DNA of 64,000 bases from Escherichia coli (GCF_003790525.1 NZ_CP033635.1), one strand, 5' to 3'. Positions 54,241 through 64,000 are shown, counted from the stretch's first letter. Made by a program: numbers and translations. Notes: generated by a model from the letters alone, not told the origin.

Positions 54241-54275
54241 AAGGGGTTAGCATTTAGCTAACCCCTTATCTTATT
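54241..54275 (-). terminator. Intrinsic terminator of serT
   Basis: Hairpin aaggggttagc...gctaacccctt immediately 3' of the tRNA on the minus strand, followed by a T-rich run. Confidence 0.65.
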
Positions 54276-54363
54276 TGGCGGAAGCGCAGAGATTCGAACT
54301 CTGGAACCCTTTCGGGTCGCCGGTTTTCAAGACCGGTGCCTTCAACCGCTCGGCCACACTTCC
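54276..54363 (-). tRNA. serT: tRNA-Ser (UGA anticodon), 88 nt, class II tRNA with long variable arm
   Basis: Minus-strand sequence GGAAGTGTGGCCGAGCGGTTGAAGGCACCGGTCTTGAAAACCGGCGACCCGAAAGGGTTCCAGAGTTCGAATCTCTGCGCTTCCGCCA: acceptor stem pairs, anticodon loop CT-TGA-AA, encoded CCA end. Confidence 0.93.
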
Positions 54364-54375
54364 GGAATGACGCGC

Positions 54376-54404
54376 ACTATAAACATCCCGATGCGGCGTG
54401 TAAA
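54376..54404 (-). promoter_or_regulatory. serT sigma-70 promoter
   Basis: Minus-strand TTTACA (-35), 17-bp spacer, TATAGT (-10), then a GC-rich discriminator (gcgcg) about 12 nt before the mature tRNA 5' end. Confidence 0.7.
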
Positions 54405-54789
54405 CCCCTAATTTGTTTGTTTGCCTGAAAAACAGCCAAAAGTGCATTGATAGCGTGAAATAACAGCAGATTGATCATTTCATCACCATGAATTCCTTCT
54501 CTTTTACTCGTTTGGCAACCGGCTAAACATCCCCACTGCCCGGCAAAAAGAAAAATAGGTCCATTTTTATCGCTAAAAGATAAATCCACACAGTTTGTAT
54601 TGTTTCGTGCAAAAGTTTCACTACGCTTTATTAACAATACTTTCTGGCGACGTGCGCCAGTGCAGAAGGATGAGCTTTCGTTTTCAGCATCTCACGTGAA
54701 GCGATGGTTTGCCTTGCTACAGGGACGTCGCTTGCCGACCATAAGCGCCCGGTGTCCTGCCGGTGTCGCAAGGAGAAGAGACGTGCGAT

Positions 54790-55908
54790 ATGAATAACGA
54801 GGAAACATTTTACCAGGCCATGCGGCGTCAGGGCGTTACCCGGCGCAGCTTTCTCAAATATTGCAGTCTGGCTGCCACGTCGCTGGGATTAGGCGCGGGA
54901 ATGGCACCAAAGATTGCCTGGGCGCTGGAGAACAAACCGCGCATTCCGGTGGTATGGATCCACGGTCTGGAATGCACCTGCTGTACCGAATCTTTTATCC
55001 GCTCCGCTCACCCGCTGGCAAAGGACGTCATCCTTTCCCTGATTTCCCTCGATTACGACGATACTTTGATGGCTGCCGCCGGAACCCAGGCGGAAGAAGT
55101 CTTTGAAGACATCATCACGCAATACAATGGCAAATATATCCTCGCAGTAGAAGGTAATCCGCCGCTGGGCGAGCAGGGGATGTTCTGTATCAGCAGCGGA
55201 CGACCGTTTATTGAGAAACTCAAACGTGCCGCTGCCGGAGCCAGTGCGATTATCGCCTGGGGAACCTGCGCGTCCTGGGGCTGCGTGCAGGCCGCGCGAC
55301 CCAATCCGACGCAGGCAACGCCTATCGACAAAGTCATCACCGACAAACCTATTATCAAAGTACCTGGCTGCCCGCCGATCCCGGATGTGATGAGCGCCAT
55401 CATTACTTACATGGTGACCTTTGATCGCTTGCCAGATGTCGACAGAATGGGCCGTCCGTTGATGTTCTATGGTCAGCGAATCCACGATAAATGCTATCGC
55501 CGCGCCCACTTCGACGCCGGAGAGTTCGTCCAGAGTTGGGACGATGACGCTGCCCGCAAAGGTTACTGCCTGTACAAAATGGGCTGCAAAGGGCCTACCA
55601 CCTATAACGCCTGTTCCTCCACACGCTGGAATGATGGCGTTTCTTTCCCAATCCAGTCTGGTCACGGCTGCCTGGGCTGTGCGGAAAATGGTTTCTGGGA
55701 TCGCGGTTCGTTCTACAGCCGCGTGGTCGATATTCCGCAAATGGGTACTCATTCCACCGCCGATACCGTCGGCTTAACCGCGCTTGGCGTGGTGGCAGCG
55801 GCTGTTGGTGTGCACGCAGTCGCCAGCGCCGTTGACCAGCGCAGACGTCATAACCAGCAACCTACAGAAACCGAACATCAGCCAGGCAATGAGGATAAAC
55901 AGGCATGA
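54790..55908 (+). CDS. hyaA: Hydrogenase-1 small subunit, 372 aa, Tat signal
   Basis: Twin-arginine motif [12 protein letters not shown]; Fe-S cluster cysteines; C-terminal membrane anchor; start placed at [15 protein letters not shown]. Confidence 0.95.
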
Positions 55909-57698
55909 GCACTCAGTACGAAACTCAGGGATACACCATCAATAATGCCGGACGCCGCCTGGTGGTCGACCCGATTACGCGCATTGAAGGCCACATGCGC
56001 TGCGAAGTGAATATTAACGATCAGAATGTGATCACCAATGCCGTCTCCTGCGGCACCATGTTTCGCGGGCTGGAGATCATCCTGCAAGGGCGTGACCCGC
56101 GCGATGCGTGGGCGTTCGTTGAACGTATCTGCGGCGTCTGTACTGGCGTACACGCCCTGGCTTCGGTTTACGCCATCGAAGATGCCATCGGTATTAAAGT
56201 GCCGGACAACGCCAATATCATCCGCAACATTATGCTGGCAACGCTCTGGTGCCACGATCATCTGGTGCACTTCTATCAGCTTGCCGGGATGGATTGGATC
56301 GATGTGTTAGATGCGCTGAAAGCCGACCCGCGGAAAACCTCCGAACTGGCGCAAAGCCTCTCCTCATGGCCGAAATCATCCCCTGGCTATTTCTTCGACG
56401 TACAAAACCGCCTGAAGAAATTCGTTGAAGGCGGGCAGTTGGGGATCTTCCGCAATGGCTACTGGGGGCACCCGCAGTACAAACTGCCGCCAGAAGCCAA
56501 CCTGATGGGCTTTGCCCACTATCTCGAAGCTCTCGATTTCCAGCGTGAAATTGTCAAAATCCACGCGGTCTTTGGCGGTAAAAACCCACATCCAAACTGG
56601 ATTGTCGGCGGGATGCCTTGTGCCATTAACATTGACGAAAGCGGCGCGGTCGGGGCGGTCAATATGGAACGCCTGAACCTGGTGCAGTCAATCATTACCC
56701 GTACGGCGGATTTCATTAACAACGTGATGATCCCCGACGCCTTAGCCATCGGTCAGTTCAACAAGCCGTGGAGCGAAATCGGCACTGGCCTTTCGGATAA
56801 ATGCGTTCTCAGTTACGGCGCGTTCCCGGATATCGCCAACGACTTTGGCGAGAAAAGTCTGCTGATGCCTGGCGGCGCGGTGATTAACGGCGACTTCAAC
56901 AATGTGCTGCCAGTGGATTTGGTTGATCCGCAGCAGGTGCAGGAGTTTGTCGATCACGCCTGGTATCGTTATCCCAACGATCAGGTCGGGCGTCATCCGT
57001 TCGATGGTATTACCGACCCGTGGTACAACCCCGGCGATGTCAAAGGCAGCGATACCAACATTCAGCAGCTGAATGAACAGGAACGCTACTCGTGGATCAA
57101 AGCGCCACGCTGGCGCGGTAACGCGATGGAAGTGGGGCCGCTGGCACGCACGTTAATCGCTTATCACAAAGGCGATGCGGCGACCGTTGAGTCGGTCGAT
57201 CGCATGATGTCGGCGTTGAACCTACCGCTTTCCGGCATCCAGTCAACGTTAGGCCGCATTTTGTGTCGCGCGCACGAAGCGCAGTGGGCCGCAGGCAAGT
57301 TGCAATATTTCTTCGACAAGCTGATGACCAATCTCAAAAACGGCAATCTCGCCACCGCCTCCACTGAGAAGTGGGAACCAGCAACCTGGCCGACAGAGTG
57401 CCGTGGTGTCGGCTTTACCGAAGCGCCGCGCGGAGCGTTAGGCCACTGGGCCGCCATTCGCGATGGCAAGATTGATCTCTACCAGTGCGTGGTGCCGACC
57501 ACCTGGAACGCCAGCCCGCGCGATCCTAAAGGGCAAATTGGCGCTTATGAAGCGGCGCTGATGAACACCAAAATGGCGATCCCCGAGCAACCGCTGGAGA
57601 TCCTGCGTACTCTGCACAGCTTTGATCCGTGCCTCGCCTGTTCAACACACGTGCTGGGCGACGACGGTAGCGAGCTGATCTCCGTGCAGGTGCGTTAA
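55905..57698 (+). CDS. hyaB: Hydrogenase-1 large subunit ([NiFe]), 597 aa
   Basis: N-terminal RIEGH region with CxxC and C-terminal DPCLACSTH nickel-ligand motif; overlaps the hyaA stop. Confidence 0.96.
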
Positions 57699-57716
57699 CA
57701 GCGAAGGAGAATCATC

Positions 57717-58424
57717 ATGCAACAGAAAAGCGACAACGTTGTCAGCCACTATGTCTTTGAAGCGCCAGTGCGTATCTGGCACTGGCTGACGGTGTTATGC
57801 ATGGCGGTGTTGATGGTCACCGGTTACTTCATCGGCAAACCGCTGCCTTCGGTCAGCGGTGAGGCGACGTATCTGTTTTACATGGGCTATATCAGGTTGA
57901 TTCACTTCAGCGCCGGGATGATTTTTACCGTGGTCTTGCTGATGCGGATCTACTGGGCTTTTGTCGGCAATCGCTACTCACGCGAGCTTTTCATCGTGCC
58001 AGTATGGCGTAAAAGCTGGTGGCAGGGCGTGTGGTATGAAATCCGCTGGTATCTGTTTCTGGCAAAACGTCCAAGTGCCGATATAGGCCATAACCCCATC
58101 GCCCAGGCGGCGATGTTCGGCTATTTCCTGATGTCAGTTTTTATGATCATCACCGGCTTTGCGCTGTACAGCGAACACAGCCAGTACGCTATTTTTGCGC
58201 CGTTCCGTTATGTGGTGGAATTTTTCTACTGGACGGGTGGCAACTCAATGGACATTCACAGCTGGCATCGGCTGGGGATGTGGCTGATTGGCGCGTTTGT
58301 GATCGGTCATGTCTACATGGCGCTGCGTGAAGACATCATGTCCGACGACACGGTGATCTCCACTATGGTCAACGGCTACCGTAGCCACAAATTTGGCAAA
58401 ATAAGTAACAAGGAGCGTTCATGA
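57717..58424 (+). CDS. hyaC: Hydrogenase-1 cytochrome b subunit, 235 aa
   Basis: Four-helix membrane cytochrome b; matches HyaC. Confidence 0.93.
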
Positions 58425-59008
58425 GCGAGCAACGCGTGGTGGTAATGGGGCTGGGCAACCTGCTGTGGGCCGATGAAGGTTTCGGCGTGCGGGTGGCGGA
58501 ACGGTTGTATGCCCATTACCACTGGCCCGAGTATGTGGAGATTGTCGATGGCGGTATTCAGGGACTGAACTTGCTGGGGTATGTCGAAAGCGCCAGCCAT
58601 CTGTTGATTCTCGATGCCATTGACTACGGGCTGGAACCTGGAACGCTGCGAACCTATGCCGGAGAACGTATTCCGGCTTATCTCAGCGCGAAGAAAATGA
58701 GCCTGCACCAGAACAGTTTCTCCGAAGTGCTGGCGCTGGCAGATATCCGCGGACATCTGCCAGCACATATTGCCCTCGTCGGTCTGCAACCCGCAATGCT
58801 CGACGACTACGGCGGCAGCCTGAGCGAACTGGCACGGGAGCAACTGCCCGCAGCGGAACAGGCGGCGCTGGCGCAGTTGGCTGCGTGGGGAATTGTGCCG
58901 CAACCGGCTAATGAATCGCGCTGTCTCAATTATGACTGTCTGTCGATGGAAAATTACGAAGGCGTTCGCTTGCGCCAGTACAGGATGACGCTGGAGGAGC
59001 AGGAATGA
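58421..59008 (+). CDS. hyaD: Hydrogenase-1 maturation endopeptidase, 195 aa
   Basis: HybD/HyaD-family protease; overlaps the hyaC stop. Confidence 0.93.
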
Positions 59009-59403
59009 GCAACGACACGCCATTTGATGCGTTGTGGCAACGTATGCTGGCGCGCGGCTGGACGCCGATCAGTGAATCCCGTCTTGACGACTGGCTTACG
59101 CAAGCGCCAGACGGCGTGGTGTTATTAAGTAGTGACCCGAAACGCACGCCAGAAGTCAGCGATAACCCGGTCATGATTGGCGAATTACTGCGCGAGTTTC
59201 CCGACTATACATGGCAGGTAGCGATTGCTGATCTTGAGCAGAGCGAAGCCATCGGCGATCGCTTTGGCGTCTTTCGCTTTCCCGCCACATTAGTGTTTAC
59301 CGGCGGAAACTATCGCGGCGTGCTGAATGGTATTCACCCGTGGGCGGAACTGATAAACCTGATGCGTGGGCTTGTCGAACCACAACAGGAGCGTGCCTCA
59401 TGA
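59005..59403 (+). CDS. hyaE: Hydrogenase-1 operon protein HyaE (thioredoxin-like chaperone), 132 aa
   Basis: Matches HyaE; overlaps the hyaD stop. Confidence 0.92.
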
Positions 59404-60257
59404 GCGAAACTTTTTTCCATCTGCTGGGGCCAGGAACGCAACCGAACGATGACAGTTTCAGCATGAATCCACTGCCGATCACCTGTCAGGTGAATGATGA
59501 ACCGAGTATGGCGGCCCTGGAGCAATGTGCTCACAGCCCGCAGGTGATTGCGCTGTTAAACGAGTTACAACATCAACTAAGCGAACGCCAGCCGCCGTTG
59601 GGCGAGGTGCTGGCAGTCGATCTGTTAAATCTCAACGCCGACGATCGTCACTTTATCAATACGCTTCTCGGGGAAGGGGAAGTGTCAGTGCGCATACAGC
59701 AGGCTGACGACAGTGAAAGTGAAATACAGGAGGCGATCTTCTGCGGATTATGGCGGGTGCGCAGACGTCGCGGCGACAAGTTGCTGGAGGACAAACTGGA
59801 GGCTGGCTGCGCGCCGCTGGCATTGTGGCAGGCGGCAACGCAAAACGTCTTGCCGACAGATTCGCTGTTACCGCCGCCCATTGATGGCCTGATGAATGGC
59901 CTACCGTTGGCGCATGAGTTACTGGCGCATGTACGTAACCCCGACGCGCAGCCGCACAGCATTAATCTGACGCAATTACCCATCAGCGAGGCTGATCGGC
60001 TTTTTCTCTCACGTCTCTGTGGGCCGGGAAATATTCAGATTCGTACCATTGGCTATGGCGAGAGCTATATCAACGCCACGGGGTTACGCCATGTCTGGCA
60101 TTTACGCTGTACGGACACCTTAAAAGGCCCGTTACTGGAAAGTTATGAAATCTGCCCAATACCGGAAGTGGTGCTGGCAGCGCCAGAAGATTTGGTCGAC
60201 TCTGCGCAGCGGCTTAGCGAGGTATGTCAGTGGCTGGCGGAAGGTGCACCGACATAA
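59400..60257 (+). CDS. hyaF: Hydrogenase-1 operon protein HyaF, 285 aa
   Basis: Matches HyaF from [20 protein letters not shown]; start overlaps the hyaE stop (ATGA). Confidence 0.92.
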
Positions 60258-60390
60258 AAAGACGGTAAGTATCGCTTTCAGTCTTATGAATATCGCAATC
60301 GGCGAATACCTCTGGTCGTAGAGTTTCAGGATAAAGAGGGAGATCTACCATTATCGGGTTATTTTTCTCTCTTCGCCTACAGGAGTGCGC

Positions 60391-61935
60391 ATGTGGGATG
60401 TCATTGATTTATCGCGCTGGCAGTTTGCACTGACCGCGCTGTATCACTTTTTATTTGTACCCCTTACCCTGGGGCTGATTTTTTTGCTGGCTATCATGGA
60501 AACCATTTACGTGGTCACCGGCAAAACAATCTACCGCGATATGACGCGCTTCTGGGGTAAGCTCTTCGGTATCAACTTTGCTCTTGGCGTGGCTACCGGC
60601 CTGACCATGGAGTTTCAGTTTGGTACTAACTGGTCATTCTATTCCAACTATGTGGGCGATATTTTTGGCGCACCGCTGGCAATGGAAGCATTAATGGCCT
60701 TCTTCCTCGAATCCACCTTTGTCGGGCTGTTCTTCTTCGGCTGGCAGCGGCTGAATAAATACCAGCACCTGCTGGTGACGTGGCTGGTGGCGTTCGGTTC
60801 AAATCTCTCTGCATTGTGGATATTGAATGCCAACGGTTGGATGCAATACCCGACCGGTGCGCATTTTGATATCGACACCCTGCGTATGGAGATGACCAGT
60901 TTCAGCGAGTTGGTCTTTAACCCGGTCAGCCAGGTGAAATTTGTGCACACCGTAATGGCGGGATACGTGACCGGGGCCATGTTTATTATGGCGATCAGCG
61001 CCTGGTATTTACTGCGCGGACGGGAGCGCGATGTCGCATTACGCTCGTTTGCCATCGGTTCCGTCTTCGGTACTCTGGCGATTATCGGTACGCTGCAACT
61101 CGGAGACAGTTCTGCGTATGAAGTCGCGCAAGTACAACCGGTAAAACTGGCGGCGATGGAAGGGGAGTGGCAAACAGAACCTGCACCTGCACCGTTCCAT
61201 GTGGTTGCCTGGCCGGAACAGGATCAAGAGCGTAACGCCTTTGCCATCAAAATTCCCGCGCTGCTAGGGATCCTCGCCACTCACTCATTAGATAAACCCG
61301 TGCCGGGTCTGAAGAATTTGATGGCTGAAACCTACCCACGCTTGCAACGCGGACGTATGGCCTGGCTGTTAATGCAGGAAATATCGCAAGGCAATCGTGA
61401 GCCGCATGTGTTGCAGGCATTCCGGGAGCTGGAAGGCGACCTGGGTTACGGCATGTTGCTCTCCCGCTATGCGCCGGATATGAATCATGTCACAGCCACA
61501 CAGTACCAGGCGGCGATGCGTGGCGCGATACCTCAGGTTGCGCCGGTATTCTGGAGTTTCCGCATCATGGTAGGCTGTGGTTCCCTGCTGTTACTGGTGA
61601 TGCTGATTGCGCTTGTCCAGACGCTGCGTGGCAAAATCGACCAGCATCGCTGGGTGCTGAAAATGGCGCTCTGGAGTTTGCCGCTTCCGTGGATTGCGAT
61701 TGAAGCCGGATGGTTTATGACCGAGTTTGGTCGTCAGCCGTGGGCGATACAGGACATCTTACCGACATACTCCGCGCACTCCGCCTTAACCACAGGACAA
61801 CTGGCTTTCTCACTGATCATGATCGTAGGGCTTTACACCCTGTTCTTAATCGCCGAAGTCTACCTGATGCAGAAATATGCCCGTCTGGGGCCGAGCGCGA
61901 TGCAGAGTGAACAACCGACGCAGCAACAGGGGTAA
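60391..61935 (+). CDS. appC: Cytochrome bd-II ubiquinol oxidase subunit I, 514 aa
   Basis: CydA-family with Q-loop; RBS aggag precedes the ATG at 60391 (ORF-track start is a GTG 6 nt upstream). Confidence 0.94.
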
Positions 61936-61946
61936 AGGAGAAAATC

Positions 61947-63083
61947 ATGTTTGATTATGAAACATTGCGCTTCATCTGGTGGCTGCTGATTGGCGTGATC
62001 CTGGTGGTCTTTATGATCTCCGACGGATTTGACATGGGGATTGGCTGTTTGCTGCCGCTGGTGGCGCGTAATGATGATGAACGCCGGATAGTGATAAACA
62101 GCGTTGGCGCGCACTGGGAAGGCAATCAGGTCTGGTTGATCCTCGCAGGTGGGGCATTATTTGCCGCCTGGCCCAGAGTGTATGCAGCGGCGTTTTCCGG
62201 CTTTTATGTGGCGATGATTCTGGTGCTGTGCTCGCTGTTCTTCCGCCCGCTGGCCTTTGATTATCGCGGAAAAATTGCCGATGCACGCTGGCGTAAAATG
62301 TGGGATGCCGGTCTGGTCATCGGCAGTCTGGTGCCGCCGGTAGTCTTCGGTATCGCCTTCGGCAACTTGTTGCTCGGCGTGCCGTTTGCCTTTACACCGC
62401 AATTACGCGTGGAGTATCTCGGCAGCTTCTGGCAACTGCTGACGCCATTCCCTTTATTGTGCGGATTGCTCAGCCTTGGGATGGTGATTTTGCAAGGTGG
62501 CGTCTGGTTACAACTGAAAACTGTTGGTGTGATTCATCTGCGTTCACAGCTGGCGACCAAACGCGCCGCACTACTGGTGATGCTGTGCTTTTTGCTGGCG
62601 GGTTACTGGCTGTGGGTCGGTATTGATGGCTTTGTACTGCTCGCCCAGGATGCTAACGGTCCTTCCAATCCGTTAATGAAACTGGTGGCAGTGCTACCTG
62701 GTGCCTGGATGAATAATTTCGTCGAATCGCCCGTTTTGTGGATCTTCCCGCTGCTGGGGTTCTTCTGCCCATTGCTGACGGTGATGGCGATTTATCGTGG
62801 TCGCCCGGGTTGGGGATTTTTGATGGCATCATTGATGCAATTTGGCGTGATTTTCACGGCAGGCATCACGCTGTTCCCCTTTGTCATGCCGTCAAGCGTG
62901 AGTCCAATCTCCAGCCTGACGTTGTGGGACAGCACTTCCAGCCAGTTGACGCTGAGTATTATGTTGGTAATCGTGCTGATATTTTTGCCCATTGTGTTGC
63001 TCTACACTCTCTGGAGCTACTACAAAATGTGGGGGCGCATCACGACAGAAACTCTCCGCCGTAACAAAAACGAGCTGTACTAA
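61947..63083 (+). CDS. appB: Cytochrome bd-II ubiquinol oxidase subunit II, 378 aa
   Basis: CydB-family membrane protein; matches AppB. Confidence 0.94.
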
Positions 63084-63095
63084 GGAGCAGGAACA

Positions 63096-63188
63096 ATGTG
63101 GTATTTACTTTGGTTCGTTGGCATTTTGTTGATGTGTTCGCTCTCCACCCTTGTGTTGGTATGGCTGGACCCGCGATTGAAAAGTTAA
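63096..63188 (+). CDS. appX: Cytochrome bd-II small subunit AppX (YccB), 30 aa single-helix membrane protein
   Basis: Not in the ORF track (too short); translation MWYLLWFVGILLMCSLSTLVLVWLDPRLKS is a CydX-like hydrophobic helix; RBS aggag lies upstream. Confidence 0.85.
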   Translation: MWYLLWFVGILLMCSLSTLVLVWLDPRLKS

Positions 63189-63267
63189 CGAACGTAAGTC
63201 TGATGCGGCGCATTAGCGTCGTATCAGGCAATCAATAATGTCGGATATGAAAAGCGGAAACATATCG

Positions 63268-64000
63268 ATGAAAGCGATCTTGATCCCATTTTTATCTCTT
63301 CTGATTCCGTTAACCCCGCAATCTGCATTCGCTAAGAGTGAGCCGGAGCTGAAGCTGGAAAGTGTGGTGATTGTCAGTCGTCATGGTGTGCGTGCCCCAA
63401 CCAAGGCCACGCAACTGATGCAGGATGTCACCCCAGACGCATGGCCAACATGGCCGGTAAAACTGGGGTGGCTGACACCGCGCGGTGGTGAGCTAATCGC
63501 TTATCTCGGACATTACCAACGCCAGCGTCTGGTGGCTGACGGATTGCTGGCGAAAAAGGGCTGCCCGCAGCCTGGTCAGGTCGCGATTATTGCTGATGTC
63601 GACGAGCGTACCCGTAAAACAGGCGAAGCCTTCGCCGCCGGGCTGGCACCTGACTGTGCAATAACCGTACATACCCAGGCAGATACGTCCAGTCCCGATC
63701 CGTTATTTAATCCTCTAAAAACTGGCGTTTGCCAACTGGATAACGCGAATGTGACTGACGCGATCCTCAGCAGGGCAGGAGGGTCAATTGCTGACTTTAC
63801 CGGGCATCGGCAAACGGCGTTTCGCGAACTGGAACAGGTACTTAATTTCCCACAATCAAACTTGTGCCTTAACCGTGAGAAACAGGACAAAAGTTGTTCA
63901 TTAACGCAGGCATTACCATCGGAACTCAAGGTGAGCGCCGACAATGTCTCATTAACCGGTGCGGTAAGCCTCGCATCAATGCTGACGGAGATATTTCTCC
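63268..64000 (+). CDS. appA: Periplasmic phytase / pH 2.5 acid phosphatase AppA, 3'-truncated by window edge
   Basis: Signal peptide MKAILIPFLSLLIPLTPQSAFA and histidine acid phosphatase motif RHGVRAP; frame open to window end; an in-frame ATG at 63247 is an alternative start. Confidence 0.92.
   Translation, partial: MKAILIPFLSLLIPLTPQSAFAKSEPELKLESVVIVSRHGVRAPTKATQLMQDVTPDAWPTWPVKLGWLTPRGGELIAYLGHYQRQRLVADGLLAKKGCPQPGQVAIIADVDERTRKTGEAFAAGLAPDCAITVHTQADTSSPDPLFNPLKTGVCQLDNANVTDAILSRAGGSIADFTGHRQTAFRELEQVLNFPQSNLCLNREKQDKSCSLTQALPSELKVSADNVSLTGAVSLASMLTEIFL

What the first reader, a model, noticed from the sequence alone, without database searches (positions are those of the whole stretch)
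54790..63188. Hydrogenase-1 (hya) and cytochrome bd-II (app) operons are contiguous and intact
hyaABCDEF is followed after 133 bp by appCBX-appA. The juxtaposition of an O2-tolerant uptake hydrogenase with a bd-type oxidase forms a compact H2-to-O2 respiratory module. All genes are full length with overlapping start/stop junctions inside hya.
Basis: partly seen in the sequence, partly recalled or inferred. Interest (0 to 1): 0.3.

Follow-up and report, generated by a model that had tools for sequence, protein, structure and literature searches.

The report
E. coli hya and app operons
This stretch is the ordinary, intact hydrogenase-1 (hyaABCDEF) and cytochrome bd-II (appCBX-appA) gene cluster of Escherichia coli, found in nearly every E. 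coli genome and already well studied.

Summary
Window 54300-64000 is 100% identical to the E. coli SMS-3-5 chromosome. It carries hyaA-F (54790-60257), a 133-bp spacer, appC, appB and appX (60391-63188), and then appA from 63268, which the window end cuts at 64000.

All nine complete genes have the same length as in K-12 MG1655, with no stops or frameshifts. HyaA, HyaB and AppX are identical in protein sequence, and the others differ by 1-4 residues. The catalytic motifs are present: the Tat signal, the six-cysteine proximal cluster, the NiFe motifs and the haem ligands.

The 9.7-kb stretch lies in one piece in 5413 of 5426 complete E. coli genomes. The hya-appCBX order is also kept in other Escherichia species, Edwardsiella, a Citrobacter and, by locus tags, Salmonella.

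The published IscR and ArcA sites of the hya promoter are present. The IscR site has one minority substitution.

The "H2-to-O2 module" idea is already published (Yamanaka 2014; Hughes 2021). It is only partly true, because electrons pass through the quinone pool, so the pairing is not exclusive.

Small corrections:
- The hyaB/hyaC junction has an 18-bp gap rather than an overlap.
- appA is incomplete in the window.
- The source strain lacks appY, the textbook co-activator.

Verdict: already known, low interest.

The parts
54276..54363 (-). serT tRNA-Ser(UGA), the upstream neighbour; marks the left edge of the hya regulatory region
   Evidence: RefSeq annotation mapped from L001. Rfam tRNA hit at 54279-54363, 57.5 bits. 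Same gene as K-12 serT.
54364..54789 (+). hya regulatory region and 5' leader: 426 bp with 5 SNPs against K-12 (54514, 54537, 54545, 54606, 54776)
   Evidence: Alignment with K-12. The AppY ChIP-seq summit at K-12 1031990 (PMC10057817, Table 1) maps to about 54641. YdeO-box hexamers TGAAAT at 54456 and ATTTCA at 54477 (box defined in PMC4222967).
54580..54608 (+). IscR type II repressor site of PhyaA, the 29-mer crystallised with IscR (PDB 4HF1); one T->C change at 54606
   Evidence: The 4HF1 DNA sequence 'ataaatccacacagtttgtattgttttgt' is listed in PMC6480146. The window reads ATAAATCCACACAGTTTGTATTGTTTCGT. Only 85 of 5416 genomes share the exact 61-mer around it.
54617..54637 (-). ArcA-P binding site of PhyaA (TTGTTAATAAAGCGTAGTGAA on the minus strand), reported at -18 to +3; this places the transcription start near 54635
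   Evidence: Sequence and position come from the supplementary tables of Park et al. 2013, PMC3798270. Exact match in the window at 54617.
54790..55908 (+). hyaA, hydrogenase-1 small subunit (372 aa)
   Evidence: 100% aa identity to K-12. Pfam PF01058 + PF14720. Tat motif TRRSFLK at residue 17. Mature Cys17/19/20/115/120/149 are all present.
55905..57698 (+). hyaB, hydrogenase-1 large [NiFe] subunit (597 aa)
   Evidence: 100% aa identity to K-12. PF00374, 739 bits. RICGVC at 74 and DPCLACSTH at 574, followed by a 15-residue tail.
57717..58424 (+). hyaC, b-type cytochrome membrane anchor (235 aa)
   Evidence: One substitution against K-12, V69I. PF01292, 134 bits.
58421..59008 (+). hyaD, maturation endopeptidase (195 aa)
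   Evidence: 3 substitutions against K-12. PF01750.
59005..59403 (+). hyaE, Hyd-1 accessory protein (132 aa), annotated in K-12 as putative HyaA chaperone
   Evidence: 1 substitution against K-12. PF07449. K-12 product name.
59400..60257 (+). hyaF, Hyd-1 expression/formation protein (285 aa)
   Evidence: 3 substitutions against K-12. PF04809.
60258..60390 (+). 133-bp hyaF-appC spacer holding the app (cyx) promoter region
   Evidence: 100% identical to K-12. The AppY ChIP summit at K-12 1037695 maps to about 60346 (PMC10057817). No terminator-like site and no unusual RNA structure, z = 0.07. TATCGC occurs at 60270 and 60291, 21 bp apart. In the alignment of six Escherichia spacers the first copy is unchanged in all six and the second in five; E. 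albertii reads TATCGA.
60391..61935 (+). appC (cbdA), cytochrome bd-II subunit I (514 aa)
   Evidence: 4 substitutions against K-12. PF01654, 585 bits. His19, His186 and Met393 present.
61947..63083 (+). appB (cbdB), cytochrome bd-II subunit II (378 aa)
   Evidence: 2 substitutions against K-12. PF02322, 323 bits.
63096..63188 (+). appX (cbdX/yccB), 30-aa accessory subunit of bd-II
   Evidence: 100% aa identity to K-12. PF08173, 45 bits.
63268..64000 (+). appA, periplasmic acid phosphatase/phytase; only the first 244 codons lie in the window
   Evidence: RefSeq annotation. PF00328. 5 substitutions in the visible part. The full gene in the source genome is 436 aa with an altered C-terminus.

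Best explanation
This is the standard E. coli chromosomal locus serT | hyaABCDEF | appCBX-appA.

Established biochemistry, not tested here:
- hyaA and hyaB encode the periplasmic, Tat-exported, O2-tolerant [NiFe] hydrogenase 1. HyaC is its cytochrome b anchor and passes electrons from H2 to the quinone pool. HyaD, HyaE and HyaF are its dedicated maturation proteins.
- appC, appB and appX encode the quinol oxidase cytochrome bd-II, which reduces O2 to water.
- appA is an acid phosphatase/phytase that shares the app transcript.

According to the literature, the two operons are transcribed from separate promoters:
- PhyaA lies near 54600-54635. It is repressed by IscR and de-repressed by ArcA-P.
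- The app promoter lies in the 133-bp spacer.

In K-12 both operons are switched on together by anaerobiosis, stationary phase and acid, through ArcA, RpoS, YdeO and, where present, the prophage regulator AppY.

Shown here: sequence identity, intactness, motifs, regulatory-site sequences, near-universal presence in E. coli, and conserved gene order in other genera. Inferred: that Hyd-1 and bd-II act together as an H2:O2 chain through the quinone pool. That pairing is favoured by co-regulation but is not exclusive.
For: - The stretch is 100% identical to E. coli SMS-3-5, with RefSeq annotation of all ten genes.
- Gene-by-gene comparison with K-12 shows equal lengths, no stops and 0-4 amino-acid changes.
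- Pfam gives full-length family matches for all proteins.
- The Tat motif, six-Cys proximal cluster, NiFe motifs, C-terminal cleavage tail and bd haem ligands are present.
- 5413 of 5426 complete E. coli genomes hold at least 80% of the 9.7 kb in one place.
- The hyaABCDEF-appCBX order is kept in 10 of 11 informative loci from Escherichia spp., four Edwardsiella spp. and a Citrobacter sp.. Flanking genes differ in the one Edwardsiella locus (L009) and the Citrobacter locus examined.
- In Salmonella LT2, tags STM1786-1791 are hydrogenase genes and STM1792/1793 are cytochrome oxidase subunits I and II.
- The IscR 29-mer and the ArcA 21-mer of PhyaA are present.
- AppY ChIP summits map into both regulatory regions.
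- YdeO activates both operons, and the Hya-quinone-AppBC chain is drawn explicitly in PMC4222967.
- In vivo, the benefit of H2 use partly depends on appC (PMC8177889).
Against: Nothing contradicts the identification. Several points argue against a strict 'module':
- The operons have separate promoters, and electrons go through the common quinone pool.
- In mice, the benefit of H2 use also depended on fumarate and nitrate reductases, and no single acceptor accounted for it.
- One Escherichia species representative (L004) keeps hya but has lost appCBX-appA.
- The AppY link between the operons cannot operate in the source strain. No K-12-like appY is on its chromosome, and appY is in only 837 of 5426 genomes.
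Confidence: 0.97

Rival explanations
1. hya and app form one long transcription unit (a ten-gene super-operon). Readthrough from PhyaA would drive app, so the adjacency would be a direct mechanistic coupling rather than two co-regulated operons.
For: - No intrinsic-terminator-like site lies between the hyaF stop and the appC start, and the spacer RNA has no unusual structure.
- All genes are on the same strand, with a spacer of only 133 bp.
- The order is kept across genera.
Against: - The literature treats them as separate transcription units, with an AppY/YdeO-responsive promoter directly upstream of appC. PappC-gfp and appC-lacZ fusions respond on their own (PMC10057817; PMC4222967).
- A separate AppY ChIP peak sits in the spacer.
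- In Edwardsiella the spacer is 400-540 bp.
- The absence of a consensus terminator does not show readthrough.
Confidence: 0.15
2. The adjacency is a historical accident with no functional meaning. Hyd-1 and bd-II simply happen to be neighbours in an Escherichia ancestor and work independently.
For: - Coupling is only through the quinone pool, and Hyd-1 can also feed fumarate and nitrate reduction.
- A natural Escherichia lineage has hya without app.
Against: - The nine-gene order is retained in Edwardsiella and Citrobacter, although the flanking genes differ in the two loci examined. By locus tags it is also retained in Salmonella.
- Both operons are direct targets of the same activators, AppY and YdeO.
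- Deleting appC reduces the H2-dependent fitness gain.
Confidence: 0.15

Closest known systems
E. coli K-12 MG1655 hyaABCDEF (b0972-b0977), hydrogenase 1
   Same: Same six genes, same order, same lengths and same junctions. HyaA and HyaB are 100% identical in protein sequence; HyaC-F differ by 1-3 residues. The promoter region holds the same ArcA site and the IscR site.
   Different: 123 synonymous or near-synonymous nucleotide differences across the six genes. There are five SNPs in the 426-bp upstream region. One is T->C at the edge of the crystallised IscR site (54606), and one is G->A 14 nt before the start codon (54776).
E. coli K-12 appCBX-appA (b0978, b0979, b4592, b0980), cytochrome bd-II oxidase plus acid phosphatase
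   Same: Same genes, order and lengths for appC, appB and appX. The 133-bp promoter spacer is identical. There are 4, 2 and 0 amino-acid changes respectively.
   Different: In the source genome (beyond the window end) appA ends ...PACALHQDK instead of ...PACSL and overlaps cspH. The etk-etp-gfcABCDE cluster and IS1 that follow appA in K-12 are absent. 1668 of 5417 genomes share this arrangement.
cydABX, cytochrome bd-I oxidase of E. coli (paralogue)
   Same: Same three-subunit architecture and the same Pfam families, PF01654, PF02322 and PF08173.
   Different: It sits at a different locus and is not next to a hydrogenase. The genes here are 99% identical to appC and appB, not to cydA and cydB.
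hya-appCBX blocks of Edwardsiella spp. and Citrobacter sp. On2M
   Same: Same nine genes in the same order. HyaA is 92-96%, HyaB 91-93% and AppC 87-91% identical to the window proteins.
   Different: There is no appA. The spacer is about 90 bp in Citrobacter and 400-540 bp in Edwardsiella. The flanking genes are different: a decarboxylase and an antiporter in Edwardsiella (L009), and putrescine-utilisation-like genes in Citrobacter (L012), both judged by eye from the translations.

Membership tests
O2-tolerant membrane-bound [NiFe] hydrogenase (group 1d; E. coli Hyd-1) | Small subunit with a twin-arginine (Tat) signal peptide | tested here: met
   TRRSFLK at residues 17-23 of HyaA. The mature protein starts LENKPR after ...AWA at residue 46.
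O2-tolerant membrane-bound [NiFe] hydrogenase (group 1d; E. coli Hyd-1) | Six-cysteine ligation of the proximal [4Fe-3S] cluster, including the two supernumerary cysteines (mature Cys19 and Cys120). The positions are from my own knowledge of the Hyd-1 structure literature. | tested here: met
   Mature positions 17, 19, 20, 115, 120 and 149 are all Cys. HyaA is 100% identical to the K-12 protein.
O2-tolerant membrane-bound [NiFe] hydrogenase (group 1d; E. coli Hyd-1) | Large subunit with the N-terminal RxCGxC and C-terminal DPCxxCxxH NiFe-binding motifs and a cleavable C-terminal extension | tested here: met
   RICGVC at 74. DPCLACSTH at 574, followed by [15 protein letters not shown]. PF00374, 739 bits.
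O2-tolerant membrane-bound [NiFe] hydrogenase (group 1d; E. coli Hyd-1) | Cognate cytochrome b anchor and a dedicated endopeptidase in the operon | tested here: met
   HyaC matches PF01292 and HyaD matches PF01750.
O2-tolerant membrane-bound [NiFe] hydrogenase (group 1d; E. coli Hyd-1) | H2 oxidation sustained in the presence of O2 | not testable with these tools
   Needs enzyme electrochemistry. It is inferred from the 100% identity of HyaA and HyaB to the characterised K-12 enzyme.
Cytochrome bd-II quinol oxidase (AppCBX) | Subunit I, subunit II and a small YbgT/YccB-type third subunit, encoded in that order | tested here: met
   PF01654 (585 bits), PF02322 (323 bits) and PF08173 (45 bits). 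Gaps between the genes are 11 and 12 bp.
Cytochrome bd-II quinol oxidase (AppCBX) | Haem axial ligands His19, His186 and Met393 in subunit I (CydA numbering, from my own knowledge) | tested here: met
   H, H and M at those positions of AppC.
Cytochrome bd-II quinol oxidase (AppCBX) | Orthology to appCB rather than cydAB | tested here: met
   4 of 514 and 2 of 378 residue differences from K-12 AppC and AppB, and the same chromosomal position after hyaF.
IscR/ArcA/AppY-controlled hya promoter as described for K-12 | IscR type II site overlapping the -35 element | tested here: met
   28 of 29 bases of the 4HF1 oligonucleotide lie at 54580-54608; the mismatch is T->C at 54606. The effect of the substitution on binding was not tested.
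IscR/ArcA/AppY-controlled hya promoter as described for K-12 | ArcA-P site at -18 to +3 | tested here: met
   The exact 21-mer lies at 54617-54637.
IscR/ArcA/AppY-controlled hya promoter as described for K-12 | Presence of the activator gene appY in the same genome | tested here: not met
   A chimeric query (1500 nt of hya plus K-12 appY) gave only one place, the hya part, on the SMS-3-5 chromosome. appY is found in 837 of 5426 genomes at megablast sensitivity. A diverged homologue or a plasmid copy is not excluded.
Single co-transcribed hya-app unit | A transcript spanning the hyaF-appC junction | not testable with these tools
   No terminator-like site lies in the spacer. The literature nevertheless uses independent appC promoter fusions. 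RNA data are needed.

The most novel reading that the evidence does not exclude
The nine genes hyaABCDEF-appCBX are kept together by selection as one unit across Enterobacterales. They are found intact in different chromosomal contexts in Escherichia, Edwardsiella and Citrobacter. The reason would be that Hyd-1 and cytochrome bd-II work as a dedicated pair, through a supercomplex, local quinone channelling or readthrough transcription, rather than merely sharing the quinone pool. In lineages such as this one, which lack AppY and carry a variant IscR site, that pairing would be controlled by a different regulator set.
Probability: 0.12. Interest if true: 0.35.

Novelty: already known. Interest (0 to 1): 0.05.

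Why it matters
It matters little as a discovery. The locus, its enzymes, their structures, their regulators and even the proposed H2-to-quinone-to-O2 chain have been published, and the arrangement is found in 99.8% of complete E. coli genomes.

The check is useful mainly as a clean annotation anchor for this end of the window. It also adds a few small population-level notes:
- The AppY activator studied in K-12 is absent from about 85% of genomes, including the source strain.
- The crystallised IscR site carries a rare substitution here.
- The hya-appCBX order is kept in other genera despite different neighbours.

Tried and rejected
1. Degenerate IscR type II motif (ANNNCCNNANNNNNNNTANGGNNNT, up to 1 mismatch): 12 hits in the window against 9.3 expected, and none in the hya or app regulatory regions. 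The motif is too loose. The real site was found only by matching the 4HF1 oligonucleotide.

2. The 8-bp AppY MEME motif ATGSCWGM has no exact match in either regulatory region, and the ArcA direct-repeat pattern TGTTA-N6-TGTTA has no match with up to 2 mismatches. The real ArcA site has a weak second repeat and was located from the published table.

3. Rfam scan at a permissive E-value: only the serT tRNA, with no riboswitch or sRNA in the region.

4. Promoter/terminator consensus scan: fewer promoter-like sites than in shuffles (4 against a shuffle mean of 7.0). Neither PhyaA nor the app promoter was detected, which fits their being activator- or RpoS-dependent. The only convincing terminator is the bidirectional hairpin at 54241-54267 between yccA and serT.

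5. The primary papers on hya/cyx regulation are not held (Nesbit 2012 PMC3510566; Atlung and Brondsted 1994 PMC196729/PMC196730; Rajagopalan 2013 PMC3676455). Statements about separate promoters therefore rest on secondary citations.

6. I considered recent horizontal transfer of the block into Edwardsiella, because HyaA and HyaB are 93-96% identical. I dropped the idea. The Edwardsiella block has 62-63% GC, close to its 57-60% flanks and far from the 54.7% of the E. coli block, and HyaE and HyaF are only 76-78% identical.


Full report
**Observation**

A megablast of window 54300-64000 against 5,426 complete E. coli genomes gave 100% identity over all 9,701 bases to E. coli SMS-3-5 (NC_010498.1) and about two dozen other strains. 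5,413 genomes hold at least 80% of the stretch in one place. Mapped to window coordinates, the RefSeq annotation of that record gives:

| Gene | Window coordinates |
|---|---|
| serT tRNA-Ser | 54276-54363 (-) |
| hyaA | 54790-55908 |
| hyaB | 55905-57698 |
| hyaC | 57717-58424 |
| hyaD | 58421-59008 |
| hyaE | 59005-59403 |
| hyaF | 59400-60257 |
| appC | 60391-61935 |
| appB | 61947-63083 |
| cbdX/appX | 63096-63188 |
| appA | from 63268 |

The ORF list shows the same frames.

**Intactness**

I fetched the K-12 MG1655 locus and compared gene by gene.

- All nine complete genes have the K-12 length, an ATG start, a stop codon and no internal stop.
- HyaA, HyaB and AppX are identical in protein sequence.
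- HyaC and HyaE differ by 1 residue, HyaD and HyaF by 3, AppC by 4 and AppB by 2.
- The 133-bp hyaF-appC spacer is identical base for base.
- Pfam assigns each protein its expected family over essentially the whole model.

The diagnostic motifs are all present:

- the Tat motif TRRSFLK;
- the six cysteines of the proximal cluster, including the two extra ones associated with O2 tolerance (mature Cys19 and Cys120; the positions are from my own knowledge of the Hyd-1 structures);
- the RICGVC and DPCLACSTH nickel-iron motifs, followed by the 15-residue tail that HyaD removes;
- His19, His186 and Met393 in AppC.

- Only four of the five hya junctions are ATGA overlaps; hyaB and hyaC are separated by 18 bp.
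- appA lies beyond the stated end and is cut by the window end after codon 244.

The 426-bp serT-hyaA region differs from K-12 at five positions.

- *IscR.* The 29-bp DNA co-crystallised with IscR (PDB 4HF1; sequence quoted in PMC6480146) lies at 54580-54608. It has one change, T to C at 54606. Only 85 of 5,416 genomes share the exact 61-mer around it, so it is a minority allele.
- *ArcA.* The ArcA site listed for hyaA by Park et al. 2013 (TTGTTAATAAAGCGTAGTGAA, at -18 to +3) is present unchanged at 54617-54637. This places the transcription start near 54635.
- *YdeO.* A pair of YdeO-box hexamers lies at 54456 and 54477 (box defined in PMC4222967).

Loose consensus searches for IscR, ArcA and AppY motifs were uninformative.

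The spacer has no terminator-like site and no unusual RNA structure. An alignment of the spacers of six Escherichia lineages shows conserved blocks. These include a TATCGC hexamer repeated 21 bp apart; the first copy is unchanged in all six lineages and the second in five.

**How it works**

By established biochemistry, Hyd-1 oxidises periplasmic H2 and reduces quinone through HyaC, and cytochrome bd-II oxidises quinol and reduces O2. The literature treats the operons as separate transcription units that share activators:

- AppY binds both promoter regions and induces both operons.
- YdeO does the same, and its authors describe the Hya-to-quinone-to-AppBC chain explicitly.
- ArcA activates hya directly and app indirectly through AppY.
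- IscR represses hya by occluding RNA polymerase.

In mice with colitis, the fitness gain from Hyd-1 and Hyd-2 falls when appC is deleted. It falls equally when fumarate reductase or the nitrate reductases are deleted, and no single deletion abolishes it.

**Related sequences**

A scan of one genome per species with HyaF found 12 loci. tblastn with the window proteins gave the following.

- hyaABCDEF-appCBX is in the same order in five Escherichia loci: E. albertii, E. whittamii, two loci titled E. coli and Escherichia sp. E1V33.
- The same order holds in four Edwardsiella species and in Citrobacter sp. On2M.
- appA is present only in Escherichia.
- The spacer is about 90 bp in Citrobacter and 400-540 bp in Edwardsiella.
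- The flanking genes differ in the two loci examined, judged by eye from the translations: a decarboxylase and an antiporter upstream in Edwardsiella anguillarum (L009), and putrescine-utilisation-like genes in Citrobacter (L012).
- In Salmonella LT2, consecutive locus tags give the same picture: STM1786-1791 are hydrogenase genes and STM1792/1793 are cytochrome oxidase subunits.
- One exception is Escherichia sp. MOD1-EC7003, where hyaF is followed by ORFs whose sizes and order match etk-etp-gfc, and the app operon is missing.

The order is thus conserved beyond E. coli. This supports a functional link, but the scan reaches only close relatives.

**Points specific to this strain**

- K-12-type appY is in only 837 of 5,426 genomes. 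A chimeric query showed no appY place on the SMS-3-5 chromosome. The textbook AppY link therefore cannot act here unless a diverged homologue exists.
- Beyond the window end, appA is joined almost directly to cspH and the etk-gfc capsule cluster is absent. Its last two residues are replaced by six. 1,668 of 5,417 genomes share this junction.

**Verdict**

The locus is textbook E. coli: already known and of low interest. The most novel reading still open is a dedicated, selected Hyd-1/bd-II unit with lineage-specific rewiring of its control. I rate that unlikely and only moderately interesting.

Noticed in passing
window 54606 (within 54580-54608): The IscR site of the hya promoter that was crystallised with IscR (PDB 4HF1) carries a T->C change at its 27th base in this strain. 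Only 85 of 5,416 E. coli genomes share the exact surrounding 61-mer. The effect on repression is unknown.
   Followed up: partly
not in the window; source genome NC_010498.1 and K-12 L015:1182-1931: appY is the prophage-borne activator through which hya and app are co-induced in K-12. It is found in only 837 of 5,426 complete E. coli genomes and has no match on the SMS-3-5 chromosome. Even so, the 133-bp app promoter spacer is 100% identical to K-12.
   Followed up: partly
L001:13170-13350 (source genome, about 580-1280 bases beyond the window end): In the source strain appA runs almost straight into cspH. The 9-kb etk-etp-gfcABCDE capsule cluster and the IS1 of K-12 are absent, and AppA ends ...ACALHQDK instead of ...ACSL. 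1,668 of 5,417 genomes share this junction.
   Followed up: yes
L004:10800-20125 (Escherichia sp. MOD1-EC7003): This is a natural counter-example. hyaABCDEF is intact, but appCBX-appA is missing apart from a 60-residue appC-like remnant. hyaF is followed by ORFs whose sizes and order match etk-etp-gfc.
   Followed up: partly
L008-L011 (Edwardsiella spp.) and L012 (Citrobacter sp. On2M): The nine-gene hya-appCBX block is kept in order in these genera. In the two loci examined the neighbours are unrelated to those in E. coli. In L009 (Edwardsiella anguillarum) the block sits just downstream of a large decarboxylase and an amino-acid antiporter, which look like an acid-resistance pair; this was judged by eye from the translations, without a family search.
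   Followed up: partly
window 60270-60275 and 60291-60296; also 54568-54573: The hexamer TATCGC occurs twice, 21 bp apart, in the app promoter spacer; among six Escherichia spacers the first copy is unchanged in all six and the second in five. It also occurs once just upstream of the IscR site in PhyaA. It could be part of an AraC-family (AppY/YdeO) half-site, but it was noticed after the fact and not tested. There are 54 copies in the 64-kb window counting both strands.
   Followed up: no
window 54776: A G->A change 14 nt upstream of the hyaA start turns the K-12 leader ...AAGGAGGAGAGACG... into ...AAGGAGAAGAGACG..., next to the ribosome-binding site.
   Followed up: no
window 54241-54267: A perfect 11-bp-stem hairpin with T-runs on both sides lies between yccA and serT. 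It looks like a bidirectional intrinsic terminator.
   Followed up: no
L014 (NZ_JAJCLZ010000176.1, 250 bp): A 250-bp contig in an assembly labelled Ruminococcus sp. encodes a fragment 99% identical to E. coli HyaF. This is most likely E. coli contamination of that assembly.
   Followed up: no
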